From Azolla caroliniana (Eukaryota > Plantae > Polypodiophyta): a DNA stretch of 64,000 bases. The notes under the pieces are model-generated. The model was given only the letters and a program-made list of their open reading frames with translations. It was not told where the DNA came from and did no database searches. Below, piece after piece: positions 3,010-60,827 of the stretch. A program made the position numbers and the translations under genes. Numbering within the stretch: position 1 is the first letter of the stretch; each line of letters opens with the position of its first letter. The stretch spans positions 14,880,001 to 14,944,000 of the forward strand of contig JBHGNT010000015.1 in the NCBI GenBank assembly GCA_043228905.1. Direction: 5' to 3'.

Positions 3010-3827
3010 ACGTAAATAGTGTAGATGAACATACAAATTAAGGTTTAAAAAATAGTGAAATGTGGGTGGGTAGATGAAAATCATAAGAAACTTGTGTAAT
3101 TAAAAAATAGGTAGAATAATAATCAATTAGGTGTATCAACATTAAGCATGCCTTAAGGGATGACACCCTAAGGTAGTCAACATGCACCCCCTCAAGACCA
3201 CCACATCTCCCTAGAATCGGCCAATTGATGGCTCAATAAAGAGTAAAGTGGCATACTCAACATCATATGCAAAAGGGCCATGAGGTGAGCATGTGCAATT
3301 AGGGCAAACACGCTCGACCTGATGCACAAGAATAATTATTATTGTAAGAGATGGCTCAAGAGAGGGGAGAGTGGGGGATACATCGCAATATGCAAAAGGG
3401 CCATGAGTTGAACGTGTGCGATTAGTGGAAACATGCTCGACCCGATGCATAAGTAGATTAATATCGTATGATGGTAGAAAGAAGAAAGAAAAGAAAAGAA
3501 AACGTAATACCACTTCCATATGACCAAGAAGAAAGCATCATAGAAAAGAAAAGAGAGATCGAGAAAGAAGAATACCGGTTTAAGAATGTTATTTTGATCC
3601 TACGAAGAGCATGGCGAGCCTTGTTAGATCCCCATCGCTCACACACAAAAAACATCAAAATAAATAAATAAAATGTTAGTAAATGCTCTAATAAAACGGT
3701 TAAGAGTCTATTACTAATCAATAGACCAAACTAAAGTAAAAGAAGGAAAATAGAATGGATAGAAGAACCCGTTCCACCCGACCACCCCTGAGCTATGATG
3801 TAGACATAACCAACTTACCGCCGACGT
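3010..3827 (-). mobile_element. Old retrotransposon 3' remnant (PPT, LTR start and ~120-bp duplicated unit)
   Basis: Minus strand CTTGAGGGGGTGCA then TGTTGAC at ~3196-3176 resembles a PPT/LTR junction; units 3230-3330 and 3353-3453 are similar to each other. Confidence 0.4.
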
Positions 3828-4556
3828 TGTCGTGCCTTTCGGCTCTGGATTGTTGCGTGAATCGGGTGGGAACCACCGAGGTTTTGGACTAGGAGAAAAG
3901 AAAATTCTAAGATAATTAAGAATATGAAATATATGGTAAGAAAGAAAGATATGAAAAACTCGTGAATCCCACGAGTATAGTGTATTAATTGATACTTAGA
4001 ATGTAAGAGAGAAATAGATGGCAAAATCGTGAATCCCATGAATATTTTTTTATTAATCAATCCTTGTAAAATAATCAACAACCCCCCATACATCTTTCTC
4101 TCCTCATATAAGGATGGAAGAGGCTAAGCATAGCTTCATGCTTTTTCTAGAGTGTTCATGCACACTAAATGTGCATGAGTTGCCTTTTTACACTATGCTT
4201 TTATTTCCTAAATATAGTGCTCATGCTCGTTAGATGTGCACGAGTCAATTTTCATTGGTGTACATTTTTTTCTTATAAATAAAGTATTCACGCATTCTTA
4301 AAAAATGCATGACTTACCTTTTAATAAAGGTAGGCATAAATAAAGGTCTTATATGTATTAAATCTATGTTTAAATCATTTAGGATAAGTTAGTACAATGG
4401 TAAGGTTGGGCTTTGTCTACGTGGAGGTGCAGGGTTCAAATCTTGCCTTATGCATGTAATGAATATTTTTAATATTTTATTTTATTTATTATACGTACTT
4501 TAAATCGGATATAGTATTTTACATATTTCACGTAGTGTGTGATTCACACTATGACA
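3828..4556 (-). mobile_element. Solo LTR, Gypsy family A
   Basis: Reverse-complement homologue of 2248-3009; flanks ACGT (3824-3827) and ATGT (4557-4560) form a 4-bp TSD with one CpG transition. Confidence 0.88.
4390..4448 (+). ncRNA. tRNA-derived Pol III-type cassette inside LTR
   Basis: A box TAGTACAATGG at 4390, B box GGTTCAAATC at 4433, TTTTT at ~4466. Confidence 0.65.
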
Positions 4557-4921
4557 ATGTCCCATACCGCTAGATATTAGGATGACTAATACCTTGGAAG
4601 AGATAAACACGATCGTCGAGACGAAAGCCTAGCCCGCACCACCGGTGTCTAAGACAACAACCTTCCGACATAATGTCCTTATGAGGGTAGTTAAGCCTCA
4701 TATTTATACCTTTTCCTAGGCCCCTTGAATAGATGTGCCTTTCTAAAAGGCTCTCCATTCATTGGTTGTCCAAATCATAATAGTGCATGCACCTATCATT
4801 CCTTCTATCCAATCATTAGTCCCCTTTTTAACATTAGTGAACATACCCTTCACTAATGTAAATATTAGTGACCTACCCTCACCAACGTTATGTGTACATG
4901 ACATACACCTTTATTCATACA

Positions 4922-9320: not shown

Positions 9321-9652
9321 TTACACCGGATAACAACAGAGAATAAACCCAGGTTTAATAGAAGCTTAGAATACATAGTTCATGGGAGAGAGTAGGATAA
9401 CATAAATTGAATTCAAAATAATAACGCTTTGTAAATATATAATGCGCTAATGAGCACTTTTATACAGGTCCTAAAAAAGGACTAACAGACATACTCACAA
9501 GTACTTCAATGCTCATACGAGCGATTGACACTAACTCTTGAAAATATGCCTACGTACTTGGCTAGATTCGTAGCACTCTAATGGCCTATCGGTTACAATC
9601 CGATCTGGCTCTCCGATCCGGGTCCTGGTTCCGGATGCGATCCGCACACCGA
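9321..9652 (-). mobile_element. Copia LTR fragment hosting a Gypsy insertion
   Basis: Shares tttatacaagtcct and tacttcaatgctca motifs with the Copia LTR at 28672-29057; duplicated at 55620-55982. Confidence 0.6.
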
Positions 9653-9746
9653 TGTCGTAGTGTATTTTGTTCACTATGTGAAAAACGTATAAAGTACCCG
9701 ATTTAATAAATATGAAGAAAATATGTGAATACATGTTACATGCATA

Positions 9747-9805
9747 GGGCACAATTCGAACCTTGTACCTCCATGTTAATGATTTGGAGCCTTACTATTA
9801 TACTA
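9747..9805 (-). ncRNA. tRNA-derived Pol III-type cassette inside LTR
   Basis: Minus strand TAGTATAATAGTAAG..GGAGGTACAAGGTTCGAATT followed by TTTT. Confidence 0.6.
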
Positions 9806-10390
9806 ATACATCATGAGTGTTAGAAAAGTAGATGTCCCACATACAAAGGGAATTTCATGCATATTTTTTAGGAAAAAGCTTTAGTTAGAAGAAAAACGCA
9901 TGATAAGAAGAAGAAGAAGAAGCTACATGTGCAAATCTAGGGTGCATGAAACCTATAGTAAAAAAAAAAACCAACATGAGGTTAGAAAAAGCATGTTAAA
10001 GAAAACATATAGATAGAAAAAACATGGATTGCTAAGACTCTCTCATCACTATATAAGGATGGGGAGAAAATTGTAATAGTGTTGTTGATTCTTGGGTTTT
10101 TTATTACAATCAAAATATTAATTAATATAATACTTGTGGGATTCACAAGTTTTGATCGCTTTTCTCAATCTACTCTAATCTATTCTAAACGATATTAATT
10201 TATTACTATGATTTTAATTATTACGTTAAACTAATTCACTATATTTGTGGGATTCACGAATTTCTATCCCTCTTTCTTACAATATACACATATTCTTATT
10301 AGCCTTAAAACTCTCTTCCTCCTAGTCCATAACCTTGGCAGTTTCCACCTCACTCACACAACGATCTGGTGTCGAAAGGCACGACACAAT

Positions 10391-10408
10391 TGGTGAACCC
10401 GACGTGAA
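10391..10408 (+). promoter_or_regulatory. Primer-binding site complementary to the tRNA-Trp 3' end
   Basis: Reverse complement TTCACGTCGGGTTCACCA matches the plant tRNA-Trp 3' end as recalled; lies 4 nt (CAAT) after the LTR. Confidence 0.8.
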
Positions 10409-10762
10409 AACGGGTGGCAAGGAGATGGAGAATCAACAAGAGGCTAGCAAGTTGATGACGATGTTCGAGCGGATGCTACAAGAACAACGCGCGATGTGAG
10501 AGATCGACGGTAGTGGAGTGGCTCGTGCAATGGAACGGGCAATTCAACGGGAAGGATGTGTCACATTATTTGTGGGACTACAAGGCGGAGATGCTATGGT
10601 GCGGAACATTGGAAGGATTGCAAGTGATATCCTTGAATCGAGTGGCTACTGATAGGCTTCAAGGGAGTATCCACAGGATATGACAACAAAATCCGACGTG
10701 GGCGGCGTTTGAAGAAGCGTTGAAGACCACGTTCGCTATCGAGGACTCCTCCAAGGCAACGT

Positions 10763-12127
10763 TGTTGGGAAAATACGACGAAGATACATGAACTTGAGGC
10801 AGGACCCTAGGGCCTCCGACTAGAGGATAACAAATTTGTGCGGTTGGATAAAAGAATTAACGGAAATGAGAAAGTTTGATAAATTTCATTGGCAAAGAAA
10901 AAGAAAATTTACAATATATCCCCAAGATTGGGAGTACAGAAGTTCAGGTTTAAAGAGATTAATAGATAGGAAAAATTAGGGTTTTTGAGAGATATGGCTT
11001 CCGTAAGTAAAATTAGGGTTTATACGAGATATGGTTTCTGTAAGGAAAATTCGGGTTTATGTGAGATATGGTTTCCGTAAGGAAAAATAGGGTTTATGTG
11101 AGATATGGCTTCCGTAAGGAAAAAATAGGGTTTATGCGAGATATGGCTTCTGTAAGGAAAAAAATTACCCCCCAATAATAATAATCCCCTATTACATTGT
11201 GCTTTCCACCCTTACTTATATAGTGATGGGAGATTTAGTACATAACAATCCATGCTTTTTCTTACTATAGACTTCATGCTTTTTCTTCTAATAATAGCGT
11301 TCATGCATGACCTTACTTTAGTTGCATGGCCTCTGTTTTTAGAGGCATGCGTTCACACAGGACCTTACTTAGTTGCATGGTCTCTATTTTTAGTTGCATG
11401 CATCCACACATGACCTTTGCTATTTCTAACTATAGACTTTATGCTTTTTCTTCTAATAATAACGTTCATGCATGACCTCTATTTTTAGAGGCATGCGTCC
11501 ACACATGACCTTACTTTAGTTGCATGGCCTCTATTTTTAGTTGCATGCGTCCACACATGACCTTACTTTAGTTGCATGGCCTCTATTTTTTGTTGCATGC
11601 ATCCACACATGACCTTACTTTAGTTGCATGGCCTCTATTTTTTGTTGCATGCGTCCACACATGACCTTACTTTAGTTGCATGGCCTCTATTTTTTGTTGC
11701 ATGTATTTGTACAATCATCCCGCCTGATCTGACCGACCCGCGTCCCAACCAATCCGACCATCCTATCCGACCCGACCAAAATCATTCCAAGCAGTTTATC
11801 CGCATCCATCCATCTAGACAATTTAGGCCAAATCACCCTCATCATTGTTTGCTCCAAACACACACATATGAAATAATAAGTCATGGGTCTACTTATATAC
11901 TGCTGGATCCAATGTTGTGCTATCTATGTGGGATATCTCACAGTTCTGTTTTCCACATCTTCTCAACTTCATACTCACATAACTTCATACATAGTTGTCC
12001 CTTTCATATGTAGTAAAATGCTTTCGGAAGCTCTTGACGATGTCTATCTTTTCATACCAAGCCATTAAGCGGATATAAAATAATTATTTCATTATATTTC
12101 ATATCGTGTGTGAAGAACCACACGACA
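10763..12127 (-). mobile_element. Solo LTR of a related Gypsy family with two internal tandem arrays
   Basis: Minus-strand termini TGTCGTG...CCCAACA. Removing it plus 4 bp restores the gag frame (EDSSKATRRGF). Arrays: ~42-bp tagggtttatgcgagatatggcttccgtaagg (10975-11165) and ~52-bp gcatgcgtccacacatgaccttactttagttgcatgg (11300-11705). Confidence 0.8.
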
Positions 12128-13561
12128 ACTCGGAGAGGATTCACAGATTGGGTGGAAACACCAGACAAAGGGCTGAAGGTCGTCGATGTGTTTTTAGCAT
12201 TCGAAAGTCGATTCAAGAGGTTGTCCGTGAGAGATCAACCTATCCTCGCACCAGACAAAGTGATCATGTTCTTATGAGCCGTGGACATCTGGGACCTGAA
12301 AGATCTCGGAGTACTTCTAGAGGATGCGACTATTGAGAGTGGCCTCAACACTACATGGGAAAACTTGTGAGACATCGTCGTGCGATACACAAAGAGGGGG
12401 AAATGGCTTGGTAATGAAGAAAAGAGAATTTCGGAACTAATCTTGAGACCAAGACCCGGATTGGAAGATCACCAACCACGACCTCGGGACACTACGACCG
12501 AAAAGGGAATTGATGCGATCACGGTGGAGCACTTGCTAAAAGAGATGGAAAATCTCAAGATTGCTATGGTGAAGAAATCGGAAGACCATCCCACGAGTTC
12601 AAAGTATATGGACCGTCGATGCATATGGTGTGATAGCACCGAACATGATCAGAAAGATTGCGATGAGCACAAGGAGGCTCTGCAATGGTATCTCATTTAC
12701 TACGAGGGAAATTGGATCCATTCGATGAACTCACAGAAGCCATTTCGACCGAACTTCCGAAAAGGCGGCATGAAGAAGGTCCTAGAGGAGGAGACTGTGG
12801 AAAAAATCAATTATGTAACAGGCGCGGGAATACGTGTGGGAGAAACATCTAGAGCGAAGTCGACTTTTTGTCCGGAAGTGCTAGAAATCTCCGAGAAAAT
12901 CGACACTAATGAGATCCGAAGCACCGGGGAAGGCATCTGAGAGGCTATAGGATGGGAGTGCCCCGTAGACAAGAATAACATTTACACCCTATGCCAATTA
13001 CATGAGGTGTATGTAGATGATAAACAATTGCGCACGGATGATGTGGCCGAACCATCGAAGACACTAGAGAACTGGAATTCCAAAGGAAAAGGAAAAGGGA
13101 AAACGATTCCGACATTCAAACTAGTGTAGGATATCGAACAACAGACGGATCTAAAGAAGGTGTTCGAAGAGAGAATCCTTGATAGTCGGGTGGAATTTTC
13201 TCTCCGGGAATTGCTCACAATAGCAAAGAAAGAGTTCCATGATCTCCTCGTGGACCTCGTGAAGAGAAAGAGGCAAGATATAGAACAATCGAATGCTCCA
13301 AGGTGAATGTGAAATATAGGATGAGATTCTAAACTCTCACTACACAAAGTCACAATGGGCATGAGCAACTACGGAGACTCCGGTCTGAATTGGAAACATC
13401 AAAGAGCCTGTAGTTGCATTGATTGATCATGGATCATACATCAATCTTATGTCCAAGGAGTTCTACCGGAAGGGGAAGTGGCCTATTAACGACAATCATG
13501 GATGGAAGATCCGGGCAACCACTAAAGCAACAGAAGACCTATTTGTGGCTTGTTTGGATGT

Positions 13562-15491: not shown

Positions 15492-18002
15492 ATGTGATGG
15501 TGAAGATCAGAGATGTGGAGATTGACCAAAATTTCTTCGTGCAAGATGAGGTCTCACATTCCATGATCCTCGGGCAACCCTTTATCACGGCTTCACGGAT
15601 TGAAACAAAGGTGCTCGATAGCGGAGCGGCTTTTGCACAGATTCGGAGCCAAAGCTGAGGGAAAACTGTCCAATTCCTAACTGTGCCATCGAATCACGAA
15701 AGGAACAAGAGAGAGCTCATCCCAAAGAAAACTGGATTTTTAAAGCGGAGTGGGGAAGTGATAGTCCGAGAAGCCCTGATACCCCACACAGGAAGAAAAC
15801 TCTCGTAGCAAAACAAGTGCGAATCAACCTAGATGGGGCATCTACATACATGGCCGTTACCGGAGAAATGAAGAAAGAACTCCGGAAGATGAAAGATGAG
15901 CTACGGTCTGCATCAATTATAAAAGAGGATGAAGAAATCATGGGTGTAGTCGAAGAAGTGTTCTAAGGGAGCACACTACAACAACTTGAAGAGCTTGTGG
16001 AAGAGAATAGTCAAGAAGATCGGGTAGTTCCGGTGGAATCGATCGAGAAGTACGAGATCATTGCGAAAATGGGGCCGGATGTGCTCTGCAAAGAAGAAGC
16101 AATGGTATGTATGAAATACAAAACTGTGGAAAAGAAGGTGAAACCATCTACGGGACCATTACCCGCCAATAGTGAACAAAAGAGGAAAGAAGTCTTGGGA
16201 GATCCAACACTTCGAAAGTCCGTGGATATCGGACATACCTTCATGAATGAGACCTGAAAGAAACTCCGGATCGGTGGAGATGGGTTCCTCTTACCGAATG
16301 AAAAAGACCGATTCTGTGAGATGCTAGAGCCATTAGGAAAAGCATTTGCATTCACATCAAGAGAGATAGGGTACGTCAATCCGAAGAAATTGGAGCAGAT
16401 GGTGATCTTCACAATAGAACATGTGTCATGGAATTTGAAGCCAATTCCGGTGCCACAGGCCCATATTCCAAAATTATTGACTTGCTCAAGGAAAAGGTGG
16501 CGATGGGGATTCTAGCGCCATCAAATGCTCCGTACTGAAATCAATGGTTTATGGTTCTGAAGAAGAATGGGTCACTCCGGTTTATTCAAGATTTGCAACC
16601 GGTGAACAAGGTCACGAGATGGAACTCCGGAGTCGGTCCGATAGTGGATGAATTTGCAGAAGTGTTTGACGGACACGCGATATACTCCATCGGAGACCTA
16701 TACTCCGGTCCGGGTATGAAGAATTCTAGTTAGCTGTGGAGAGCCGAGATATCACTACAACGTGGACACCAATAGGATCAGTCCGGATGTCTACGCTACC
16801 ACAAGGAGCGATGAACTCGATCGCACATATGATGAATGCGATGAACAAGGTGCCTCGAGACTACATTCTGGAGATAACGATGCCATTCCTAGATGACATT
16901 CCAATGAAAGGATGTGCGGTAGAAGAAAAGGATGAGAATATGGGTGATCGGGGATGTCGTAAATTCGTAGGCGACCATATTTGCGACTGTGAGAAAGTGC
17001 TACAGAAGTTAGAAGATGTGCACTTAACACTCTCCGGAGAGAAATCGGCATTCAGACAGAAGCGATATTGATAGTCGGACATCTATGTGGGCCCTACGGG
17101 CGAAGACCGTCACTAGTCAAGATCGATGCGATTCAAGCCATGAAAGAAATATGCGAGTCACAATCCGAAGTCCGTAGATTTCTTGGTGCTTGTGCCTTTT
17201 ATCACATATGGATTCCACACTATGCCCACGTTGCAAACCCACTCTATTACTTGCTACGGAAGGGTAAGAAGTTCGAATGGAGACCGGAACATACCAAAGC
17301 CATGAAGAAGCTCAAGAAAACACTACGGAGGGCAAAAGCACTTAAGAAGCTGAATTATGACAGACCGATCATAGTGACGGTTGATACAAGTCCAACTGGG
17401 ATCGGATGGGTCATCAACCAAGTCGACTTGGATGGTTCCCGATACCCGATTCGATTCGGAGCAAAGGTTCTTAACGAAAGGCAATGCGGATATGCACAAC
17501 TTAAAAGAGAATTATGGGGAGTCGTGTCGCCAATAAAATCGGATCGAGATTATTTGATAGGAGCCGAAGTAGTGATCGAAACAGATTGTCTTCCGATACT
17601 CGGGATGATGCGATGTTGCACGATACCGGATGTGGCTATGCTAAGATGGATTGCATATGTAAAGTCACTTAATCTGGAGGTTCAACACATCTCGGGAAAA
17701 GAAAACCCGATAGCGGATATGTTATCAACTGCCCGGTTCGAAGATGACATAGTCGAATCGGATAATGAAGAAGTTTCCGAAAACTACTTTTCTTCGAAGC
17801 ACATATGCTGGGTGAACGTGATTCGGGAGTTCCGGAAAAGAAAAATATGAGGGAGAAAGCTTACTGATTTGGTAAGTGCTACAAGAAATTGAGGAATCAT
17901 CAGACAATAAAGAAAAGATAACTGAGATCCGAAGGAAAAAACGACAAGTCCGGAAGTTCTTCTTGAACAATGGATTAATTTGGAGAGAGCCAAAAATACC
18001 AG

Positions 18003-18634
18003 TGTCGTGAAAATTCGTCACTATGTGCAGATCTTGAGGCGGAACCGCCGGGGTTATCGACGGGAAGGAAATAGGGATCACACGCACAACACAAGGAATG
18101 CTTACACAAACAAGGCATGAGTATTCAAACGTGTTTGTGAAAAGGAGAGGTGCATGGGCAAGCCCGAATCAACCCCTAATCACAAGGCGAACGAATGCAC
18201 GTGAGGAAGGCTTACTCACGGACACACAAGGAAAAGGCTTACTTACACACACGAGAGACAGAGTTTTGAATGACTTTGTGAAAAGAAAGGTGCATGGGCA
18301 AGCCCGAATGCTCTCTTGTTACAAGACACGCGAACACACAAGCAAGGTTTACATACGGAAGACACAATTTCGAACGCCTTTGTGAAAGGAGAGGTGCATG
18401 GGCAAGCCCGAACGCTTCCTTGCCACAAGTCGCACAAACACACAAGGAAGATTTACACTAACACACAAGATATGATTTTGAACACCTTTGTGAAAGGAGA
18501 GGTGCAGGGGCAAGCCCGAACGCTCCCTTGCCCAAAGTTGCATGAACAGGTAAGCACAAATGAAAATAACATATAAGACACGTAACTTTGAATGCCTTTG
18601 TGAAAGGAGAGGTGCATGGGCAAGCCCGAAATGC
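18003..18634 (-). mobile_element. LTR fragment (probably Gypsy) with a 5-unit tandem array
   Basis: Starts TGTCGTG exactly where the host integrase region breaks; core CTTTGTGAAAGGAGAGGTGCATGGGCAAGCCCGAA repeated at ~18133, 18274, 18378, 18486 and 18596. Confidence 0.7.
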
Positions 18635-21600
18635 TGTCATGCCTTTTGGCTCCGGATCGTTGCGTGAGTCAGGTGGGAACCACTGAGGTTTTGGACTAGA
18701 AGAAAGAAGAATATGAGATAAGGCTAGTAATGAATAGGTAGAAAGAGAGGTAAGTTCTGAATCTCGTGAATCCCACGAGTTTAGTATCCTTAATCAATAT
18801 TTAGATAGTAAGAGAAAATTCAGATCACAAATTCATGAATCCCACGAATATATTATATTGGTCAATCCTTACAAAATAATCAACAACCAAATACATCTTT
18901 CTCTCTTCCTTATATAGTGATGGAAGAGGCTAAGCATAACATCATGCTTTCCCTAAACTGTTCATGCCCGCTAGGTGTGCATGAGTTGCCTCCTCTCAAC
19001 CATGCTTTCCACTTCCTAAATATAGTGTTCATGCACGCTAAGCATGCATGAGTAACTTTTCTTTTGTTTGCTTGTTTCTTCTAGATAAAGTTTTCACCAA
19101 CTCTAAAAGTGCATGATCTGCCTTCTTGTAAAAGTAGGTGTAAATATAAGTCATATATCACTTACGATAAGTTATTACAATAGTAAAGTTTGGGTTTATT
19201 TGCATGGAGGTACATGGTTCGAATCTTGCCCTATGCATGTAACAATCTTTTTTTCTATTTACAAATTTGTCTCTTCATCCGGTGAGAGACTCTCACCGAC
19301 CTTCTTTATCTGGCTCTTGTTGGTTTTGCTTGATCCGGTTCTCACCGGTTCTCCTCATCGGGTCCTCCTTGCCGGTTCCTCCTTCATCTGGTTCTCACCG
19401 GGTCCTCCTTACCGGGTCCTCCTTACCCCATCTAGAGGGACCAAAATGCAATTTTCACGTAGTGTGCGAATTACACTACGACACTCGCCCCCTCCAAACC
19501 TGCACATCCTCTGGTATGTGCCGAAGTTCCCGATGCCTGTTGTTCGTCTTCATCCGTAGCACTTTCCAATTCCTCCCTTATATCAACTATCAATTGTAGA
19601 ACGCTTTCTTCGCTTTCTGCATCACCACGACCTTTGTCCAATTGATCCTGGTTGTCGGTCTTGTCTAAGCTTACATAAGGTTCTTCGTCAAGCCGTTTCT
19701 TGAAATTCTTCCCCCGTTTCCCCGCTATAGGCACCCGTAGTACTGTTCCATCCAACTCGCATAGTCGGTAAGTTCCGTTGTCGAAAACTTTCCGAACTTC
19801 GTATGGCGCAAACCACCTTTTTGCGAACTTCCGTATCGTTGTATGTTGATGATCTAGACTACTGTCATAAACAATCACCCAATCACCTTCTTCAATCTTC
19901 CGCGGTCATAGTCGATGCTTTGTGTCGAATCAGCTTTTGTTCCGGAATCGCGCTTCTTGTTGTCGGCATGTTGCTTCCGCTATATCTTCTGGTCTTCCCT
20001 CCAACTGTTGTATCCGGACTGCTAGTAGTTCTTCCCGGCTCATCTCTTCCTTCCACGACAGCACTGTCCATGTCGTAATTGTAGTTTCCGTTGGCATTAC
20101 CAAGGCTTGTCTGGTCATGAGTTTGGCCAGCATAAAACCAGTCACGGAACTTTGCATCGTACGATCCGCCCATAGTGCATACGGGAGCATCTGCAACCAA
20201 TCCTTCACCCTTCCGTCGCATGCTTTTCCAAGTGCTTTGACGATTGGACTATATCCTAATTCGATCTTCCCGTTGGCTTCTTGATTGTATGCCGTTGTTA
20301 GTGTTAACCGAACTCCATGTTTGGTGAAGAATTCCCTAGCTTTATCAGAGTCAAGTTCTCCTCGATCCGCAATCACTTATCCTACGCACCCGTATTGGAA
20401 AAACACTTCTTCCAAAAGAAATTGGCATACTACAGAACATGTTTTCCTCCGTAGTGCTCGACCTTCTACTTGGTTTGTGAGATCTTCCCGAGCTAACACC
20501 AAGTACTTCTTTTGTCCGATCCTGGTTGGCATGGCTACAATGTTGACCATCCATTTGAAGTTGATTGTCGGTGAGAATGTCGGATGTAACTCATCTCGGT
20601 GTCAAACTCCGGAGTAGACTTGGCATTTCTCGCAACTTTCCGTGAACTCCGCAACATCTTTGTACATATTCTTCCACCAATATCTTTGCTTGATCTTCAC
20701 AAATGTTCCCCATGTTCCCCGATGTCTAGCCCAATCAGATTCATGAAATTCACACATTATCTGGTTTCGTTGCTCTTTTGTCCTGACTACTCGAAGTAGT
20801 ATGACATCCGGTCTTTCCGGTCTTTTCGGCTCCCTCCATATGAATCCATTTTTCAAGAAGAACTTTCGAACTTGCTGCTTCTTACTTCGGATCTCGGCTC
20901 TCTTCTCTTTATTGTCCGATGATTCCTTGATTTCTTGTAGCACTTTCCCGATGAACAAGCTTTCTCCCTCATATTCTTCTTCTTGGAATTCTTGGATTAC
21001 GTTCACTCGGCATATGTGCTCCGAAGCAAAGTAGTCTTCGAAAATTTCTTCATTATCAGATTCGGTTATGTCATCTCCAAACCACGCCCTTGATAGCATA
21101 TCCGCTACCGCGTTGTCTTTTCCGGAGATGTGTTGTAGCTCCGGATTAAGTGACTTAACATATACAATCCACCTTAGCATAGCCACATCCGGTATAGTAC
21201 AACACCGCATCATCCCGAGTATCGGAAGACAATCCGTTTCGATCACTACTTCGGCTCCGATCAAATAATCTTGATCTGATATGATTGCTCCGAATCAGAT
21301 AGGATATCACGAACCATCCTAGTCGGCTTGATTGATGACCCATCCGATTCCGGTTGGACTTGTGTCAACCGTTACCTGATCGGTCGGTCATAGCTCGACT
21401 TCTTAAGTGGTTCGGCCCTCCGTAGTGTTTTCTTAAGCTTCTTCATGGCTTTGGTATGTTCCGGTCTCCATTCGAACTTCTTACCCTTCCGCAACAACTG
21501 ATAGAGTGGGTCCGCAATATGCGCATAGTGCGGAATCCATATGTGATAGAATGCACATGCTCCAAGAAACCTTCGGACTTCGGATTATGACTCGCATACT

Positions 21601-21648
21601 TCTTTCATAGCTTGAATCGCATTGATCTTGGTTGGTGACGGTCTTCGG
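18635..21648 (-). mobile_element. Gypsy family A 3' half (3' LTR 18635-19483, INT, RNase H), degenerate
   Basis: LTR homology; PPT at 19484-19497; ORF fragments 19471-19878, 19930-20376 and 20602-21264 match 62..2260. Confidence 0.92.
19173..19231 (+). ncRNA. tRNA-derived Pol III-type cassette inside LTR (A box degenerate)
   Basis: TATTACAATAGTAAA..GGAGGTACATGGTTCGAATC followed by TTTTTT at ~19248. Confidence 0.55.
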
Positions 21649-22487
21649 CTGGACATCGGGGAACATGGGCAACATTTGCAAAGATCAAGCAAAAATATTG
21701 GTGGAAGAATATGTACAAGGATGTAGCGGAGTTCATAGAAAGTTGCGAGAAATATCAAATCTACTCCGGAGTTTGACATCGCGATGAATTACATCCGACA
21801 TTCTCACCGACAATCAACTTGAAATGGATGGTCGACATCGTGGCCATGCCAATCGGGATCGGGCAAAAGAAATACTTGGTGCTAGCTCGGGAGGATCTGA
21901 CGAACCAAGTAGAAGGTCGGGCACTACGGAGAAAAACATGTTCTACAGTATGCCAATTTCTTCTTGACAAGTGATTGCTGATCGGGGAGAACTCGACTTT
22001 GATAAAGCTATGGAATTCTTTGCTAAACATGGAGTACGACTGGCACTAAACACGACATACAACCCAGAAGCAAAAGAGAAGATTGAACGAGTTCATAGTC
22101 CAATCGTGATAGCACTTGCAAAAGCGTGCGACGGGAGGGTGAACAATTGGCCGTAGATGCTTCCGTATGCACTATGGGCAAATTGCACAACGCATAGTTC
22201 CGTGCTCGGATATATGCCAACGGGACTTATGACCGAACAAGCTCCGGTAATGCCTATGGAAACAACAATTGCAACATGGAAAATGCTACCATGGAAGGAA
22301 GAGATGAGTCGGGAAGAACTACTGGTGGTCCAGATACAACAGCTAGAAGGAAGACTGGAGGATGTAGCGGAAACGGTACACTAACAACAAAAAGCACAAT
22401 TTCGGAACAAACATCGATTCGATAAAAAGGACCGACTTCGACCGCGGAAGATCGAAGAAGGGGATTGGGTGATAGTCTATGATATTA
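21645..22487 (+). mobile_element. Gypsy family A integrase fragment, inverted relative to its neighbour
   Basis: GHRGTW..LAREDLTNQVEGRALR..MLPYALWA..EEGDWVIVYD with stops. Confidence 0.88.
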
Positions 22488-27099: not shown

Positions 27100-28671
27100 C
27101 CCATTGCAATGCCTTCTACACCACGACCTACCGTGGGGACACTTTCCACAACCTCTAGGGTCGCGAAGGTCATAAAGAAATTACAACATAGGAAGTCCAT
27201 GGACCACACAGGGTTTTCCACGCTAACTCTAATCTTCAATTGTGCCCTCGGGGAGGGTTTTCCACCACAATGGAGTATGAACACAATGGCCCCCATACAT
27301 AAAGGGGGCATCCTATCGACCCAAATACATATAGGACCATTATGATAGGTCATACCCTTGCTAAATTATATGGTACAGTAATGGAGGCAAAGCTTAGGGA
27401 TTATATGGGGACCCTAAATCTTCGCACACCTAAATAGGTTCGCTTTAGACGTTCATATCTTCACACGATGCTTAATTGACTAGACTAAGGCTCGCAAGAA
27501 GAAGTTATTGTTGGGAGACAGGTCCCTCCGGATGGGAAGGGAGAAGAACAGTGCCGTCGAACGATCTCGGCCGAGGCTGAAACCGGAAGAGGAGTACCCG
27601 GCTACGGAGAGCCGGATGGTGCAGACCCGGTATGAACCAGAAGAGGAGTACCCGGCTACGGAGAGCCGGATGGTGCAGACCCGGTATGAACCGGATGAAG
27701 AGACATATTCGTAAATATGTTTCTGAGAGTCCATCGAGGCTATATTTGTAAATAGCCGAAAAGTCATATTAGTATAAATATGACTTAGGGCAAACTTTTG
27801 TTGTTGATAGTTGTTGTCATTTTTCCTTGTTGGTGCAAGAAGAAGAGAGAGCACGTAATAGTGTACAGAGAGAGAGAGAGAGAGAAAGAGGTCGTTGCCT
27901 CTGTTGTAACCGCCGCCTGTGGCGAAGATCTGTGAGCACGAGGTCGTTGCCTCTGTGAACTCATTGTTGTACATTCTCACATAGTGACAGTTTGCAGCCT
28001 GTGGGCTGCCGTGGTTTTTCCCCTAGTTTGGGGTTTTTCCACGTAAACCTCCTGTGTATCTTCCTCCTCTTTGTGTCATGTTTTATTTCCCGTTTTTCTG
28101 TGTATGAAAAGAATCACGGTTGTGGCCGAGCGTTGGACATAAGGAGCCTTGAGTTCCCGTCAGTTATATTGTTGTTTTGTGGACTTCCACAGAGCCTTGG
28201 ACACGGTCCCTAAAGAGTGGTTGTTGGATAGGCTTAAAAGCTTGAGGATACCAGATGACATGGTTTGGGCCATCTACGCACTATATGAACAAGTGTCTAT
28301 GTGTGTTCGATGCCCAGGTGTCCTATCCAATTGTTTCACTAGCACTATTGGTGTAAAACAAGGTTGCCCCCTTTTTGGGATCTACATTGATGACATCACA
28401 TATTTTATTTCTTGTAAGGGAGGCAATGGAGTTGTCCTTGGGGATACGGAGGTTCATATCTTGCTCTATGTAGACGACATAGTTTTGCGCTCTGAATTCG
28501 AACACGACCTAGAAAGGCACCTTAATAGCTTAGATGACTTTTGGGCACAATGAGGATTGGTAGTGAATCTAGGGAAAGCTAAAGTCCTTATCTTCCACAC
28601 ATCAGCCCAAGTTAGAGCTAAGTGTCACCTAACTATCTACCATAGCCCAGTTGAGGTGGTTGGATCATATG
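27100..28671 (+). mobile_element. RTE-type LINE reverse transcriptase fragment
   Basis: PIHKGG..YRTIMIGHTLAKLY, LYCCFVDF..DTVP, GVKQGCPL, LLYVDDIVL; split by a solo LTR and cut by a Copia insertion. Confidence 0.8.
27509..28162 (+). mobile_element. Solo LTR (probably Copia) with 5-bp TSD
   Basis: TGTTGGGA...TCCCGTCA flanked by GTTAT/GTTAT; removal restores the LINE frame; 60-bp tandem duplication at ~27580-27700. Confidence 0.88.
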
Positions 28672-35502: not shown

Positions 35503-38500
35503 CCACTTAAGTACAAGGTCATATTTAAGGCGTTATAGTTCACACTTCTACCTAGATTCTATCTAGGTAACTACGAAGTTACATGGTTGACAAACTAACT
35601 AAATTAAGTTGAGCTTGATCTCTCAACATGCCCCCTCAAGCTCAAGTGTGAGGCGTCCGACATCCACTTTGGCTTTCGTCAACTTCGTGTGCTTCCGTCC
35701 GGCCTTCGGCTTTCTTTGCCGTGGTAATCTCGGTTCCTTATACTCGTTGTAATGATGGGCCATATACTCGTTGTAGCCAAGCTGAGTGACGGGATTCTTC
35801 TCTCTAGAAGAGCATCAAAGTTTTTCGCTCACAGATGTGAGCACCTTCTTTGCTCCGGGTGTCCGCATGATGGGTACACTGATCTCACTATCTAGTGAGG
35901 GAGCCAACACATCCGAATCACTGTTGTCGGGCTGATTGACTTCGTATTCGGGCATCTTAGCTTTGCCTTTGTCCAAGTTCGTACTTGGACGCGACGTTGT
36001 CACGTTATTTCGCGCGTGCATGAAAAAGGGCAGGACCACAGGGGTCTCGGACAAGGGAAGAAGGGAAGCCGTGATGACGATTCCGGACGCGTTCCGGAAG
36101 CAACCGAAGGAGAGATAGAAAGAGAGAGAAAGAGAGAGAAAGAGAGAGAAAGAGAGCGTGTGCTTGACACCGACTCACACACACCACGCCGACCCAACTC
36201 ACACCCTTATGTACAGAAACGGAGGTAAGAGGACGCCAAAACACCCACACAGACACCGATACGGAGAACCCTCCACACATATATTACAAGATTAAGATAC
36301 AATATTGGCATCGAGCCCGACCTAAGTAGCTCAGGTTGCAATAGTCGTCTACTGCCAAGCCGTCAGTCGGGGAGCTCTCGGGCTTGTCGCATCGAGTGGG
36401 GTCTTGCACAGGGGGGGACGGGGCAGCAAACAGAGACACTAGATGTCCCGGCTCGATACACAGAATGACAAAGAGGAAGAAGCAGAGGAAGGAAGAAGAA
36501 ACGAAACCCTAAACAAGAGGAAGAGAAAGAGATGATGTCTCTTAATCCAACGGTGTACCCTACCAATGCAAAAAGGGGCAACCCTTTCACAAAGGGCGCT
36601 CCCTTCCTTTTATAGAACAAGGAGAGGGATGCGTTACAATGTGGGACAAATCCCGACTGTCATGGGATTCTCTGTCCCGACTTGACTCCTACTATTCACA
36701 CGTTTCTAGAAAAGGGGGGGTGCACATGGTGCACACCGCCGATTCTCCTGAAATTCTCCGATTCTGCCTAAGGATGGTTTTCTCCACGACATCTGCCCCC
36801 ACCATACCACACATCCACCGGTATGCGCCAAAATGGACTCGTTGCCGGAGAAGACCGGCCCGTACTTACCCTTCATCCTCCGGATCGCCATTCGCTTCGG
36901 ACCGGTTCATCCTCGTGCCGCTTGCCTCTCCGTAGGCTCATTCGACCTGTCAATAGGTCGTTCGTCGTGGCCCCGTAGTACGTGTGTTTCGTCGTTGGCC
37001 CTTCGCTTGGTCGAATGCACGCTCCGCTATCCGCCGTAAGCCCGGGGTCCTCCGCTTGAGTAGCGTCCGTAACGGCCTGCTTGGCCTCAGTACCCTGCCG
37101 CCGTCTTTGCCGCCGCTACCGTCTGTCACTGTCTCGGTCTCATGTTGCCTCTTTGGCCGAACAGCCGGAGTCTCCAGAGTCGATGCGTGCAAAGTACCGG
37201 CACCATTGTGTCCCCTTTGCCTATAGGTGTCCTCTGTGTCCGAGGAATACCCGTAGTAGCCTGCTTGGCCCCCCTTTCGTCTTGTGTTGCTGCCGCCGGG
37301 TTGAAGCCTTTCGCTCGTCGTCGTCCCCTCGCCCCCACCAGCTTGTTGTCTCGAGCTTGGCTTGCCACGCCAGTCGTTGCCACTCTGACCGAGCCGCCAA
37401 GATCTCTGAAGCGGGTGTGCAGGATCCTTCTCCGGCCCGTGTATCATTTCCGGTCTCCGAGCCGTGCAGTTTGTCGCGTGCCCCTTTCCGCGTTCCCAAC
37501 ACCACCGTGTGCGTGCCGTCCTTTAGTCGTGCTCCGATTCGGCCCTCGATGGCCAGTTGCACTATTATTCTTCATCTTTGGGTGTGCCATTCCCGGCTTG
37601 GCACACTGCCCGTACTTGCCCTTGCCGGCTCTTGTCGATGTCGGGTCCCGTTCCTCACCACTACCATCCTTCTCTCTCGGTCTCATGTTGCCTCGTTGGC
37701 CGAACTGCCGGAATCTCTGGATCGGTGTGAAGATCCCATAGGACCGGTCTTCGTTTCGTTGCTTGCGGAAATTCGGGTGACCTTTGTTTGAATCCCTCCC
37801 GGACTCTCCTCGTGTCTTCCGCATAATCGGGTCCCGTTTCCCGCCGCCACCAGCCTTCTCTCGAGGTCTCACGTTGCCACGTTGGCCGAACTGCCGGAGT
37901 CTCCGGTTTGGTGTGGGGATCCCGTAGGACCGGACTTCCTTATGCTCGTGACCTTGCCGGTAGGTCCAATTTAGTTCGTAGCCGCTTCGCCGGTCTGATA
38001 CCTTCCTTCTCTGCTTTCCGTCGTCCGATCACATTCACTTGCCGCCACCGTCCTTTCCTATAGGACTCACGCCGGCTCTCGGGCCGACTACCGGATCGCT
38101 GTGAGGATCTTCGTGGGACCTCGGTTTGCCCGCCTTGCCGCCGCCACCGTTCTTCGCTCTAGGTCTCACGCCGGCTCTCGGGCCGACCACCGGAGTCTCT
38201 AGAACCGGTGAGTGTAAGGTCGCTGTAGCACAGCTCGCTGTCTTGTCACGTTCACCTACCACCACCGACCTCTCCTATAGGACTCACGCTGACACTCGGG
38301 CTGACAGCCGGATCGGTGTGAGGATCTCCGTAGACTGCCCGTCCATAGTTCTTCGCCTTCGTCCCCTCGCCGCCACCGATCGTCACTCTAGGTCTCACGC
38401 CGGCTCTCAGACCGACCACCGGAGTCTGTAGAACCGGTGTGAAGGATCCTCCTCGGGCTTGTCGTATCTCTGACCCTTATCCTAGGTCTTCCTTCTTTCG

Positions 38501-41500
38501 TGAGCCAAGAGGGTGGCTCGCTCCACGCCCTCTCCCATGGTACTGACGTACCATGTTCCCGGCCTCTCCGTAGGCCTACTCTCTTCCTCCCTCCCGAAAT
38601 GGTTATCCAGGAGTCCGCTTCGCCCGGTTCTCGTCCGGGTCTGTCTGTCATTCTCTGGATTGCCGGGTCCCGTTCTCCTATCGCCACTGATCTTTCCTAT
38701 AGGACTCACGCCGGCACTCGGGTCAACAACCAGATCGATGTGAGGATCTCCGTAGGACCGGTCTTCGTTCTCCTCTTCATCCCTCCCGTACTTCTCCCGA
38801 ACTCGTCGTCGCTCTCCTCGTTGTGCTCCCACCTCCATCTTCCATCTCTTTCGGTCTCACGTTGCCACGTCGGCCGAACTGCCGAAGTCTCCGGACAGGA
38901 TGTGGGGTAACCGATTTCGCAACATCTTTCGGCGACTCGTCCGGGGCGACCGACCCTTTTAGTGGTGTCAGTGGATAGCATCCGCTCTGTGATCAACCAA
39001 GCCCGCCTGGGCTTGGTTCTCCAATGTCCGGAGTTTCGGCTCTGAAGCTGACCTCTCCGGACTCGTTCCGAACCCTTTGATCACCTTCCTTCCAATTCCC
39101 GACCTTCGCCCGGTCGGTATTTCTCCTCATGTTAAAGAGGGCGGCTCGTCTTGCACCATCTCCCGTATCGGCACCTTCATGCCGAATCCGGCCCCGATCA
39201 AACAATCCACGACCGGATTACGCTCCACCCGTATCGGAGCATCTCACGGTTCGGTCCCCGGTCGGGTCATTTCTTGGTCTCTTCGTCGACCTTTTCGTGT
39301 GCCATCTCCCAACCATCTTCGTTGGCATCGTGCCAGGACTCCTTAATACCGTCATCCATCTCCTCGGTCTCACATGGGCATAAGGGCCCGAATGCCGAGT
39401 TCTCCGGAATCGGGTCCGAGGGCTTTCGTCCACTCCTTTCCCGTATCGTCTTGCCGGTGATTCTCGATCCCTCGCCGCCGCCTTCCTCCTCTTGGGACTC
39501 ACCTGGGCACTCGGGCCCGACTGCCATGGTCTCGGGAGCAAGTGTGGGAAGACACGAAGAATCGCCCGTCCGCTTTATGCCCTTGTCCGTAGCCACCGAC
39601 TCTTCGTGGTCAACGGTCATCTCCTTACTGATCGCGCAAGCCCCTGCTTGGGGTTTCTCCAATGTCTGGGGTTTCAGGCTACCACGCCCGAAACCGCTAG
39701 TTCCAACGTTCCGATTCCACGATCGGTATCTCAGCCTCGTCCTCGGCCGTTCTTTCTCCGCAAGTTGAGAGGGCATTTTGTTCCCCACCCTCTCCCGTGG
39801 CACCGTCGTACCGATCTCCTGCCATCGCGTGGGGCAAGTCCGTCTCCTCGGTCTTGGCTTGTGGCCTCGATCTTTCCTCTTCCTCGAGCATCGCCTGGAG
39901 AGCTGCGTATGCCTCCGCAATCCTGGGCCTGAAGTCGAGCTTGCCGATTCTCTTTGTCGTTTGGCCTCTTCCCGCTGTGATGGCACGCTGTCACGTGCCT
40001 TCCCCTTTGCCTTCTCGGCTCGCTCGTCATCCAGCCGTTGGCACACCCTTCCGACCTTCGACCAGTCCTCGGTGAGGCCATTCGCTCCGTCCTCATTTTC
40101 GAGGTCAATCCTGATGGCCTCCCATTCCGCTCGGTCTATCGACTTAACGAACAACAGGACTTTGTCCGCCCCCACCAAACCTTGTTCCCGCTCTGGGAGC
40201 CGAACAAGTCGTCGCTCGTACTCTCGGAATGCCTTTGTTGCTCCCCGGTGGGTCTTTGCCGATGCTACCCACTAGTCGAAGCCGCGTCGTCCCCGACTCT
40301 TCCGCTGTCCCCCATAAGCCTGCAGGAGAGCCTCTTCGAAGGCCTCCCACGAACTATGAGCTTCTCGGAGCTCCTTCACTTCCGCGTGCATACGGACGAC
40401 GATGATCCGACAGAAGAACTCCAGCCTCAACGCCTCAACTACATCTCGCTCCTCCATTTCCGCGTTGTACGCATCCAAGTAGAATGGGACTTTGTCCCTG
40501 TTGAACCGTCCGACTCTTTTGACCACGCATTCGACAGCTTGCTGCGCCGCCTCTCTTCTTGTTGTTGCTCGTCCAAACTCCCTCACCGCTTCGACAAAAA
40601 GTTGCGCGAAGTCGTCTTCTTCCGACTCCATCCTCCCTTTGCCGCCTTTCACGCCGGGTTCACCAGATATGTCGCGTTATTTCGCACGTGCGTGAAAAAG
40701 GGCGGGACCACGGGGGTCTCGGACAAGGGAAGAAGGGAAGCTGTGATGACGATTCCGGACGCGTTTCGGAAGCAACCGAATGAGAGAGACAAAGAGAGAG
40801 AAAGAGAGTGCGCGCTTGACACCGAGTCACATACACACACACACACACACCATGCCGACCCAACTCACACCCTTATGTACAGAAAGGGAGGTAAGAGGAC
40901 GCCAAAACACCCACACAAACACCGATACGCAGAACCCTCCACACATATATTACAAGATTAAGATACAATACTGGCATCGAGCCTGACCTAAGTAGCTCAG
41001 GTTGCAACAGTCGTCTACTGCCAAGCCGCCAATCGGGGAGCTCTCGAGCTTGTCGCGCCGAGCAGGGTCTTGCACAGGGGGTGGACGGGGCAGCAAACAG
41101 AGACACTAGAAGTCCCGGCTCGATACACAGAACGACGAAGAGGAAAAAGCAGAGGAAGGAAGAAGAACAAAACCCTAAACAAGGGGAAGAGAAAGAGATG
41201 ATGTCTCTTAATCCAACGGTATACCCTACGAATGCAAAAATGGGCAACCCTTTCACAAAGGGCGCCCCCTTCCTTTTATAGAACAAGGAGAGGGATGCGT
41301 TACAATGTGGCATAAATCCTGACTGTCATGGGATTCTCTGTCCCGACTTGACTCCTACTATTCACACGTTTCTACAAAAGGGGGGGTGCACATGGTGCAC
41401 ACCGCCGATTCTCCCGAAATTCTCTGATTCCGCCTAGGGATGGTTTTCTCCACGACAACGTGCTTGGGTCGCGTGGGGGCTCTTGTGGCCCACTAGGCTT

Positions 41501-53039: not shown

Positions 53040-53201
53040 TAGCATATAATCCATACCTATTACACAATATACAAATTTATACATACATATATGGATACAT
53101 ACATAGATATATTACATATGTAAATACATATTCCACATATCACCATATATATAGACTATACTAAACCATACAAACCACAATACTTACATATATACATGTA
53201 T

Positions 53202-53239
<38 letters not shown>

Positions 53240-53993: not shown

Positions 53994-54073
<80 letters not shown>

Positions 54074-55108: not shown

Positions 55109-55982
55109 ACGTAAATTTTATTGACTGTCAAGGAATACAATCACTAATCTCACATTTATTTCACTTATTTTTGGATTTCTTTTTTCACACATAAATTATG
55201 TCTTATTTCTGAATAAAGAAATAACTATTGAGTGCAAGGCCCCTTGTATTTGCAATTGATTAATCCAAAATATTTAGTTTGAGGTGTTTGTTTAGTATAT
55301 TATATATGCATCGTATTTCAATCTTCAAAGAGACCTTCTTTTCCTTATCCGTGAATTCAATTCTGCTTACCCATTGTGTTGTTACTATTTGGTGGGCCGG
55401 AACAGTTCTATAGATCGATTGAGTTTTAACTCCTGTCAAAGTTTTTGCTGAGGATTCAAAGCAGGGTATACACATCTTTCTTTTTTAATGCGTGTATCTT
55501 GTTAGCTAACCTCTAATTAAATACATGAGATAATGTGGTTTGTATTCTCATCTTTGCTTTAATAACATACATAGATTATAAAACAATCATAATTTATTCA
55601 TGTGGTTTTTTATGGAGGTTGTGAAAGTTAATATGTGGAAGCTTTGACAAAACTGGTTACACCAGATAACAACAAAGAATAAACATAGGTTTAATGGAAG
55701 CTTAGAATACAATGTTCATGGGAGAGACAGAGAGAGCAGGATAGCATAATTGCAATTCAAAATAATAGCGCTTAGTATATATAATGTGCTAAGTGAGCAC
55801 TTTTATACAAGTCCTGAAAAAGGATTAACAGAAGTACTGACAAGTACTTCAATGCTCATACTAGCGATTGACACTGACTCCTGAAAATATGCCTACGTAC
55901 TTGGCTAGATTTGTAGCACTCTAACGGCCTACCGGTTACAATCTGATTTGGCTCCTAGTTGCGGATGCCATCCGGACCCCAA

Positions 55983-56833
55983 TGTCATAGTGTATTTTGT
56001 ACACTACTTGAAAAACGTATAAAGCACCCGATTTAATAAATATGAAGAAAATATGGGAATACATTTTACATGCATAGGGCAAGATTCAAACCTTGTACCT
56101 CCATGTTAATGATTTGGAGCCTTACTATTATACTAACATATCATGAGTGTTAAAAAAGTAGATGTCCCACATGAAAAGGTAATTTCACGCATATCTTTTA
56201 GGAAAAAGCTTTAGCTAGAAGAAAAACGCATTAAAAAGAAAAGAGCTACATCTGCAAATCTAGGGTGCATGAACACTATAGTCGAAAAACAAAACCGCAT
56301 GACATTAGAAAAAGAATGTTAGAGAAAGCATATAGATAGAAAAAGCATAGATTGCTAAGACTCTCTCATCACTATATAAGGATGGGGAGCAAATTGTAAT
56401 AATGTTGTTGATGCTTGGGTTTTTTATTACAATCAAAATATTGATTAATATAATACTTGTGGGATTCACAAGTTTTGATCTCTTTTTTCTATCTACTCTA
56501 ATTTATTCTAAACTATATTAATTCGTGGGATTCACATTAAACTAATTCACTATATTTGTGGGATTCACAAGTTTTGATCGCTTTTCTCAAGCTACTCTGA
56601 TCTATTCTAAGCGATTACATTAATTTATTACTATGATTTTAATTATTACGTTAAACTAATTTAGTATATTCATGGGATTCACAAATATCTATCCCTCTTT
56701 CTTACAATAGACACATATTCTTATTAGCCTTAACACTCTCCTCCTCCTAGTCCATAACCTCGGTGGTTTCCACTTGACTCACACAACGATCCGACGTCGA
56801 AAGGCATGACACAATTGGTGAACCCGACATGAA
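55983..56833 (+). mobile_element. Gypsy family A 5' LTR (55983-56811) and tRNA-Trp PBS; internal region deleted
   Basis: Near-copy of 9653-10408 with an internal ~100-bp duplication; tRNA-like cassette at 56077-56135 on the minus strand. Confidence 0.88.
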
Positions 56834-56959
56834 AACGGGTGCGTATTCCGCATCGAATTCCGACTACGACAATCATTGTGGAATGGTCACGAATTCTGAC
56901 TACGACAATCGTAGCGGAATGTTCATGATGAGGCACAAAGCACACTCAATGACGACTTA

Positions 56960-59420: not shown

Positions 59421-60079
59421 AGTGCAATGTGTGAACACACCTTTTGAGATTCTATGATTACTCAAAGATCAAGAGTCACACCACTATCTCTCTACACATT
59501 GGGTGGAAGCACGCTACGGTGTACCAGAAAAGTACTGTTTTTGGCCACAAAAATTGTCAATACTTTCGATACTATTGGTACTGAATAATTCAGAAAAAAA
59601 AAGTAGAGAAAAAAAAAATCGATTTTGGAGAGTGGGGTGACTGTAGTACAAGTGTCATTTACTACAAGGAATGGAGGGAACACGTGAGGAGATGTTCTTT
59701 CCATTTTGGGGGCTATTTTCCCCTCACGTCGATTTTGGCGCTTCCCCTCATGTCGTTTTTGGTGGTTCCCCTCATACTCCTCTTCCTCTATCCCTCTGAG
59801 CTCTTCATCTCAGACATCCATGTCACGTTTCTGCTTTTCCTCCAATCTAAGAGTTTTGTTAGGGTTTAGGGAGCAAATCGCAGACATCCATGTCAGGTTA
59901 GAGCTTTTGAGTTGAGGATTTCTGGTTTTTTTAGGGTTTCTATTGTTGTTAGGGTTTAGGTTGAGGAACAGAGATTGTTCTAAGGCCTCTTATAACAGCC
60001 AATAGTGACTTCTTCGACAACGACTTTCTTACTTCCACCAATTGCAATTTATGTCGTGGTAATTTGGGGCTTTTTCCAT

Positions 60080-60545
60080 CGAGGCGAGGATCCTTCCACC
60101 GAATCCAGGCGGCATATCACAAAGATTCAAGGCGTCCTCCACCATTGGAGGTTCCTTCCACTAAATCAAAGCGGCATATCACAAAGATTCAAGGCACCCT
60201 CCACCATTGGAGGTTCCATCTAGCAAATCGAGGTGGCATATCACACAGAATCAACGCTCCCGCCACCATTGGAGGTTCCTTCCATCCATTTTTTTATTTT
60301 CACGACTAAAATTTTTCATTTCTTCATTTTTCAGTACTAAATTTTTTGATTTTACAATTGTCAAATTTGTACATCATGCTTTCACCATCGGAGGTTCCTT
60401 CCAGCAAATTGAGGCGGCATATCACACAAAATCAACGCTCCCGCAACCATTGGAGGTTCCTTCCATCCATTTTTTTATTTTCAAGACTAAAATTTTCCAT
60501 CTCTTCATTTTTCAGTACTAAATTTTTAGATTTTACAATTGTCAT
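60080..60545. repeat. ~63-bp tandem units plus a ~180-bp duplication
   Basis: ggcggcatatcacaaagattcaaggc..cctccaccattggaggttcc repeated about 4-5 times. Confidence 0.8.
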
Positions 60546-60827
60546 ATTTGATCGGTAATTCTAATGTTTGAAACCAATTATTTCTCACTTTGCAGGCCAC
60601 ATTTCAAAACATTAACTACTATTTCCGGACACTTAAATTTTTTGGATAAATCTAGTGACCAAATGGGGGTCCCCAACGAGAGTGAGTTGTCAAGTAACTC
60701 ATGTATATCTAAAAGGACCAAGAGACGAGTGGTTCTTCACATAGTCCGTTATTTGGTAGAAATAACGAAGAGATTTCGTGAAGAGGATTGTAGGGATATT
60801 ATATGTAGAGTGTTACACCATCAACGT

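What the first reader, a model, noticed from the sequence alone, without database searches (positions are those of the whole stretch)
3824..60827. Gypsy lineage with 4-bp TSDs that inserts into CpG-centred sites (mostly ACGT)
Seen: the 4-mers abutting TGTCG-type LTRs are ACGT (3010-3013); ACGT/ATGT (3824/4557); CCGA (9649); ACGT/ACTC (10759/12128, where the 4-bp size is fixed by gag frame restoration); CCAG (17999, whose homologous uninterrupted site 920-923 is CCGG); ATGC (18631, where sibling repeat units read ACGC); ACGT/ACGT (35994/41458, perfect); and ACGT (60824). All eight independent sites have a central CG or its deamination product. By contrast, the Copia-like solo LTR at 27509 has an ordinary 5-bp TSD. 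Established: most plant LTR elements make 5-bp TSDs with weak sequence preference. Inference: this chromodomain-less integrase targets CpG (possibly methyl-CpG), which would steer it into other TEs and explain the nesting.
Basis: partly seen in the sequence, partly recalled or inferred. Interest (0 to 1): 0.72.

Follow-up and report, generated by a model that had tools for sequence, protein, structure and literature searches.

The report
Phygy-type retrotransposons inserting at CpG sites
These jumping genes really do land almost only on four-base sites with CG in the middle, but this matches a habit already published for the Phygy group of moss retrotransposons, to which they likely belong, and nothing here shows that the CG must be methylated.

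Summary
In 47 paired elements found by their primer site or LTRs, not by their flanks, 34 have a perfect 4-bp target duplication, none a 5-bp one, and 33 of the 34 have a central CG (background 3.8%). Genome-wide, 1,464 of about 1,710-1,750 host-facing ends of one family abut NCG, against 2 NTA. Nineteen tRNA-Met-primed control elements show no 4-bp duplication and no CG bias. It is not new: Neumann et al. 2019 list Phygy (non-chromovirus Ty3/gypsy of a moss) with a 4-bp NCGN duplication and tRNA-Trp priming, and these elements share those traits and lack a chromodomain and archaeal RNase H. A tree against Phygy references could not be built. The motif refines to VCGB (ACGT commonest), a strict form of the retroviral VYRB. 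The methyl-CpG idea is unsupported but not excluded: flanks resemble random VCGB sites in CpG decay, and nesting (42 of 47) exceeds random VCGB sites (314 of 400) only weakly (p=0.09). The deaminated duplications are best read as methylation after insertion.

The parts
2..2260 (+). RNase H and integrase part of pol of element 1 (gag-protease, RT and 5' LTR lie upstream of the window, L091); no chromodomain, no archaeal RNase H, acidic tail, stop inside the 3' LTR
2248..3009 (+). 3' LTR of element 1 (family A), preceded by polypurine tract
3010..3013 (+). Right target duplication ACGT (left copy ACGT upstream of window)
3824..4560 (-). Solo LTR 3828-4556 (family A) with ACGT/ATGT duplication
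9649..10408 (+). CCGA flank, 5' LTR 9653-10386 and tRNA-Trp primer-binding site at 10391; one-sided site
10759..12131 (-). Solo LTR 10763-12127 (family C) inside gag; ACGT/ACTC, homologous empty site mostly ACGC
17999..18634 (-). CCAG flank and LTR fragment from 18003 inserted in pol; homologous empty site CCGG; one-sided
18631..21649 (-). ATGC flank, 3' LTR 18635-19483, polypurine tract and decayed RNase H-integrase of a truncated copy; one-sided
27504..28167 (.). Control: solo LTR 27509-28162 with 5-bp GTTAT/GTTAT duplication; 75% alike in part to the LTR at 62657-63248 of a tRNA-Met-primed element
35994..41461 (-). Non-autonomous element 35998-41457 (family B; gag remnant, no pol; LTRs 35998-36791 and 40670-41457), Trp-type primer site, ACGT/ACGT
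55979..56833 (+). Second copy of the 9649 insertion with shared flank (CCAA, LTR 55983-56811, primer site); not an independent site
60824..62655 (-). ACGT flank, 3' LTR 60828-61484 and integrase of a 12-kb nested element whose other flank reads ACAT downstream of the window

Best explanation
These are tRNA-Trp-primed, chromodomain-less Ty3/gypsy retrotransposons, likely of the known Phygy clade, that duplicate 4 bp at sites reading V-C-G-B, and their integrase likely selects that sequence directly, whether or not it is methylated. Shown: primer site, 4-bp duplication, near-absolute central CG, avoidance of T at the first and A at the last position, several families and pol-less derivatives with the same target. 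Inferred from retroviral intasomes: two cuts 4 bp apart need a sharp kink at the central pyrimidine-purine step; because TA is used 2 times against 1,464 for CG, flexibility alone cannot do it and base-specific contacts are inferred. Inferred: methylation of the new copy and its flanks then erodes the duplications by C-to-T change at CG and at the CHG sites that the junctions create. Nesting follows mostly from a repeat-rich genome whose repeats hold more CG.
For: 34 of 47 perfect 4-bp, 0 of 47 5-bp, 33 of 34 CG. Genome-wide ends of family A: 2,742 in all, 1,030 followed by NNNN-TGG, 1,464 NCG, 1,621 NYR, 2 NTA; expected from background about 65 CG and 106 TA. Folded edge base A40 C16 G9 T1 of 66 against 33% T expected. 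Primer site complementary over 18 bases to host tRNA-Trp(CCA), 3 of 3 loci checked. Phygy: n=186, 4 bp (100%) NCGN, tRNA-Trp 81%, no extra domain. PFV consensus VYRB with a central bend (PMC4422553). CGCG targeting occurs in one Drosophila errantivirus subgroup (PMC5408687), a host with little CpG methylation (recalled). Flank CpG o/e 0.87 versus 0.90 for random VCGB, p=0.37. 11 of 13 imperfect pairs differ only by C/T or G/A.
Against: No Phygy reference sequence could be obtained, so clade membership is untested. Pol-bearing copies are 6.9-7.8 kb (only 2 of 23 within the Phygy range 7.66-9.97 kb), though stretches of 9.5 kb could not hold much longer ones. Nesting is somewhat above random VCGB (89% versus 79%, p=0.09), a trend that methyl-CpG or chromatin targeting would also give. 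No methylome and no integrase assay were available; the protein contact that reads CG is unidentified.
Confidence: 0.78

Rival explanations
1. The integrase reads 5-methyl-CpG, or methylation strongly enhances use of CG sites, steering copies into silenced repeats without a chromodomain.
For: 42 of 47 sites have repeats on both flanks; homologues of target sites often show deaminated CG, so such sites are commonly methylated; a 1992 paper on CpG methylation affecting retroviral integration in vitro exists (title seen in a reference list; text not held).
Against: Flank GC, CpG o/e and TpG/CpA excess do not differ from random VCGB sites at 490 bp; 5-bp controls are nested in 15 of 19 (p=0.27); no methyl-binding or chromo domain found; deamination in duplications is one-sided, so later than insertion (33 of 34 perfect pairs keep CG).
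Confidence: 0.14
2. Same sequence-reading mechanism, but the elements form a sister clade of Phygy rather than Phygy itself, so the NCGN habit would have a wider spread.
For: Shorter size than published Phygy; named relatives come from liverworts and ferns, none from Physcomitrium.
Against: All other tabulated traits match Phygy and no other of the 15 gypsy rows in the table combines them; Phygy has been reported from a liverwort.
Confidence: 0.06
3. Artefact: the 4-mer belongs to the element ends, or the CG excess comes from generic bendability or base composition.
For: LTR ends are themselves CG-rich (TGTCG...CGACA); three of the eight window sites are one-sided.
Against: Flanks vary among at least 9 CG-centred 4-mers and match left to right; empty sites hold one copy; internal junctions lack the 4-mer; TA 2 versus CG 1,464; controls unbiased.
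Confidence: 0.02

Closest known systems
Phygy clade, non-chromovirus Ty3/gypsy (Neumann et al. 2019, PMC6317226)
   Same: 4-bp duplication, NCGN target, tRNA-Trp primer, no chromodomain, no archaeal RNase H, no extra ORF, short elements filled by the polyprotein; nesting in other elements was reported for Phygy (PMC6911290).
   Different: Pol-bearing copies here are mostly 6.9-7.4 kb against 7.66-9.97 kb; motif resolved here to VCGB; about half of paired copies lack pol; tree placement untested.
TatI and Selgy clades (same paper)
   Same: 4-bp duplication; TatI uses tRNA-Trp; Selgy lacks extra domains.
   Different: TatI always has an archaeal RNase H (absent here); Selgy uses tRNA-Ala and averages 5 kb; neither is listed with NCGN.
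Prototype foamy virus and other 4-bp retroviral intasomes (PMC4422553)
   Same: 4-bp stagger, V..B edges, central pyrimidine-purine step; best solved-structure match of this integrase (E 1e-19).
   Different: Their preference is weak and allows any YR; here it is about 85% CG before allowing for decay, and TA is excluded.
Drosophila errantiviruses with CGCG targets (PMC5408687)
   Same: Ty3/gypsy-group elements with a palindromic 4-base CG-containing target.
   Different: Animal lineage with other LTR ends; the centre of CGCG is GC, not CG, so the likeness is loose.

Membership tests
Phygy | Placement in the Phygy clade on RT/RH/INT trees | not testable with these tools
   REXdb sequence file too large to read; no labelled Physcomitrium relative among hits
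Phygy | Ty3/gypsy order GAG-PROT-RT-RH-INT | tested here: met
Phygy | 4-bp target duplication | tested here: met
   34 of 47 perfect 4-bp, 0 of 47 5-bp
Phygy | NCGN target | tested here: met
   33 of 34 perfect pairs; 1,464 genome-wide ends
Phygy | tRNA-Trp primer-binding site | tested here: met
Phygy | No chromodomain, archaeal RNase H or extra ORF | tested here: met
   Pfam scan of element 1 to E=1; pol stop lies in the 3' LTR; tested on one element
Phygy | Size 7.66-9.97 kb (descriptive; the authors call size of little value for classification) | tested here: inconclusive
   23 un-nested pol-bearing copies 6,906-7,771 bp, 2 within range; sampling capped near 8-9 kb
TatI | Archaeal RNase H domain | tested here: not met
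Selgy | tRNA-Ala primer | tested here: not met
Chromovirus (Tcn1, Galadriel) | Chromodomain at integrase C-terminus | tested here: not met

The most novel reading that the evidence does not exclude
The Phygy-type integrase is itself a methyl-CpG reader: a retrotransposon that finds silenced chromatin through DNA methylation instead of a chromodomain, possibly through its unusual acidic, shortened target-contact helix (DRGEL).
Probability: 0.12. Interest if true: 0.65.

Novelty: new member of a known kind. Interest (0 to 1): 0.17.

Why it matters
As found, it confirms a published clade trait in this genome and sharpens it (VCGB, TA excluded, thousands of sites). It offers a practical marker for annotating these elements and a large natural data set for asking how an integrase reads CG. 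It would matter much more if methylation were required, which remains untested.

Tried and rejected
Five-base or terminal origin of the 4-mer: rejected. Generic YR bendability: rejected. Longer palindromic target: not found; of 12 folded flank positions only -1 (C 26 of 68, p=0.0015 uncorrected) and -7 (p=0.013) deviate. Methylation footprint in flanks: none beyond random VCGB, apart from slightly lower GC at 200 bp (p=0.03). Obtaining Phygy references: failed. Metagenome relatives: 39 loci, 21 with a primer site or polypurine tract; short contigs, not analysed for paired duplications. ESM Atlas gave only generic gypsy integrases. tRNA scan of ten 10-kb stretches found none before the pattern search succeeded. 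Earlier scan notes: none. A Cryptococcus paper checked as precedent was irrelevant. In one search, 51 of 98 primer-site motifs were dropped (45 without a partner LTR in range, 6 without a clear LTR end). The family with a 3-base spacer (567 junctions) is represented by one paired element only.

Full report
Setting. The window is a gene-poor nest of LTR retrotransposons and LINE fragments at G000:C15:14880001-14944000 of a 523-Mb plant genome. Named relatives of the pol protein come from liverworts and ferns (Riccia, Calypogeia, Adiantum, Ceratopteris), so the host is likely a non-seed plant (inference).

Observation. Four sites are two-sided and CG-centred (3010, 3824, 35994, 60824), one is two-sided but decayed (10759; homologous empty sites mostly ACGC), and three are one-sided (9649, 17999, 18631), the last being weak. 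Empty homologues carry the 4-mer once, which fixes the duplication at 4 bp. Internal junctions show polypurine tract before TGTCG and a short spacer plus primer site after CGACA, so the 4-mer is host DNA.

Anatomy. Element 1 runs from upstream of the window to 3009 (7,192 bp; LTRs 99.6% alike; ACGT/ACGT). It has a gag-protease frame overlapping a pol frame with RT, RNase H and integrase, then an acidic tail; Pfam finds no chromodomain or archaeal RNase H. The primer site is the complement of the 3' end of host tRNA-Trp(CCA). Exact LTR-end-plus-primer junctions number 3,106 with a 4-base spacer and 567 with a 3-base spacer. At least two pol-bearing families (integrases about 65% identical) and many pol-less derivatives share ends, primer and target: 24 of 47 paired elements have RT, RH and INT, 23 do not.

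Test of the target rule. I took 60 stretches chosen from the first 100 listed primer-site matches (all on contig C1, blind to flanks), eight content-blind 100-kb blocks, nine loci chosen by LTR similarity and the extended window. Of 98 primer motifs, 47 gave LTR pairs; three of these are the window's own. Thirty-four have a perfect 4-bp duplication, none a 5-bp one; 33 of 34 have central CG against a 3.8% background; 46 of 47 have CG on at least one side. Counts: ACGT 14, ACGG 4, CCGT 4, CCGG 3, ACGC 2, GCGC 2, GCGT 2, CCGC 1, TCGG 1, none ending in A. Genome-wide, a 16-base LTR end of family A occurs 2,742 times; 1,030 are followed by NNNN-TGG (mostly primer sites; about 4 in 100 listed are host flanks), leaving about 1,710-1,750 host-facing ends, of which 1,464 abut NCG, 155 NTG or NCA, and 2 NTA; background predicts about 65 CG and 106 TA. 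The pattern holds CpGs and so favours young copies. Among the first 100 NCG ends listed, the first base is A 61, C 19, G 18, T 2 (my count). Controls: 19 tRNA-Met-primed LTR pairs gave 12 perfect 5-bp duplications automatically, 6 more after correcting a 3-base boundary slip by eye, one decayed, none of 4 bp; 3 of 19 contain CG, about as expected.

Mechanism. For retroviruses that duplicate 4 bp the target is sharply bent at a central pyrimidine-purine step, T and A are disfavoured at the edges, and the PFV consensus is VYRB (PMC4422553, abstract and passages). VCGB is the strict form of this. Since TA is excluded, base-specific reading must be added to flexibility (inference). The integrase motif after the second catalytic aspartate is DRGEL; the position aligned with PFV Ala188 is Glu in 110, Asp in 9 and Asn in 1 of 120 relatives, whereas retroviruses keep a compact residue there (PMC4005685, passages). 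This is only a lead: the alignment has a one-residue gap close by, and Ala188 touches bases three positions outside the cut, not the centre.

Methylation. Eleven of 13 imperfect pairs differ only by C/T or G/A: six at the central CG, five at CAG or CTG sites created by the junction (one pair has both), one in CCG. This fits CG and CHG methylation after insertion and would inflate ACGT in old copies (inference). It says nothing on the state at insertion. Flanks of the 47 sites match random VCGB sites in CpG o/e (0.87 versus 0.90) and TpG/CpA excess. Both flanks are repetitive in 42 of 47 sites, 314 of 400 random VCGB sites (p=0.09), 264 of 399 random positions (p=0.0008) and 15 of 19 controls (p=0.27). 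These comparisons are weak: repeats were scored against 1.45 Mb only, element sites come mostly from C1 while the background comes from eight blocks, and selection removes insertions in genes. Methyl-CpG reading is therefore neither supported nor excluded.

What is known. Neumann et al. 2019 (PMC6317226; passages and Additional file 5 read) state that Phygy elements prefer NCGN, the one exception they note among plant lineages: 186 elements, 4 bp in 100%, tRNA-Trp in 81%, no extra domain. Jedlicka et al. 2019 (PMC6911290; passages) report 4-bp duplications for Phygy and Phygy nested in Tcn1. A liverwort genome paper lists Phygy (PMC12885004; passages). A search for 'NCGN' with 'retrotransposon' gave three papers, only Neumann on topic by its listing; searches listed no test of methylation dependence for Phygy, judged from titles and abstract openings. 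The elements work like Phygy in every tabulated trait except a somewhat smaller size; formal membership needs a tree that I could not build because the reference file was unreadable.

Verdict. Real, strong and already described for the clade it most likely belongs to. New member of a known kind; interest 0.17. The open, testable remainder is whether methylation of the CG matters.

Noticed in passing
L091:8535-8655 (upstream of window): Gag-protease frame and pol frame overlap in the -1 sense across a T/A-rich run, suggesting a ribosomal frameshift after the protease; Neumann lists polyprotein organisation for Phygy as not determined.
   Followed up: partly
window 902-2260: Integrase motif DRGEL: acidic residue or one-residue shortening at the target-contact helix, conserved in 119 of 120 relatives.
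   Followed up: partly
window 9321-10416 and 55657-56841: The same LTR insertion with the same upstream flank occurs twice (86-91% alike), a duplicated or co-mobilised nested structure.
   Followed up: partly
window 21644-25300: An inverted piece of Phygy-type pol is fused to a decayed gag-RT of a different gypsy lineage on the minus strand.
   Followed up: no
G000:C8:17.80-17.82 Mb, C16:4.99-5.11 Mb, C5:10.11 Mb: Tandem or clustered tRNA-Trp-like 3' ends (63 matches genome-wide, many spaced about 0.9-1.2 kb); only three dispersed copies on C1 were confirmed as tRNA-Trp genes.
   Followed up: no
blocks from C4 (10.04-10.07 Mb), L222, L227, L238: Young pol-less derivatives of 3.2-3.7 kb with LTRs 99-100% alike and perfect CG duplications, pointing to recent mobilisation in trans.
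   Followed up: partly
window 46100-46800 and 53050-54700: Long ATAC/AC-rich low-complexity tracts beside LINE fragments.
   Followed up: no
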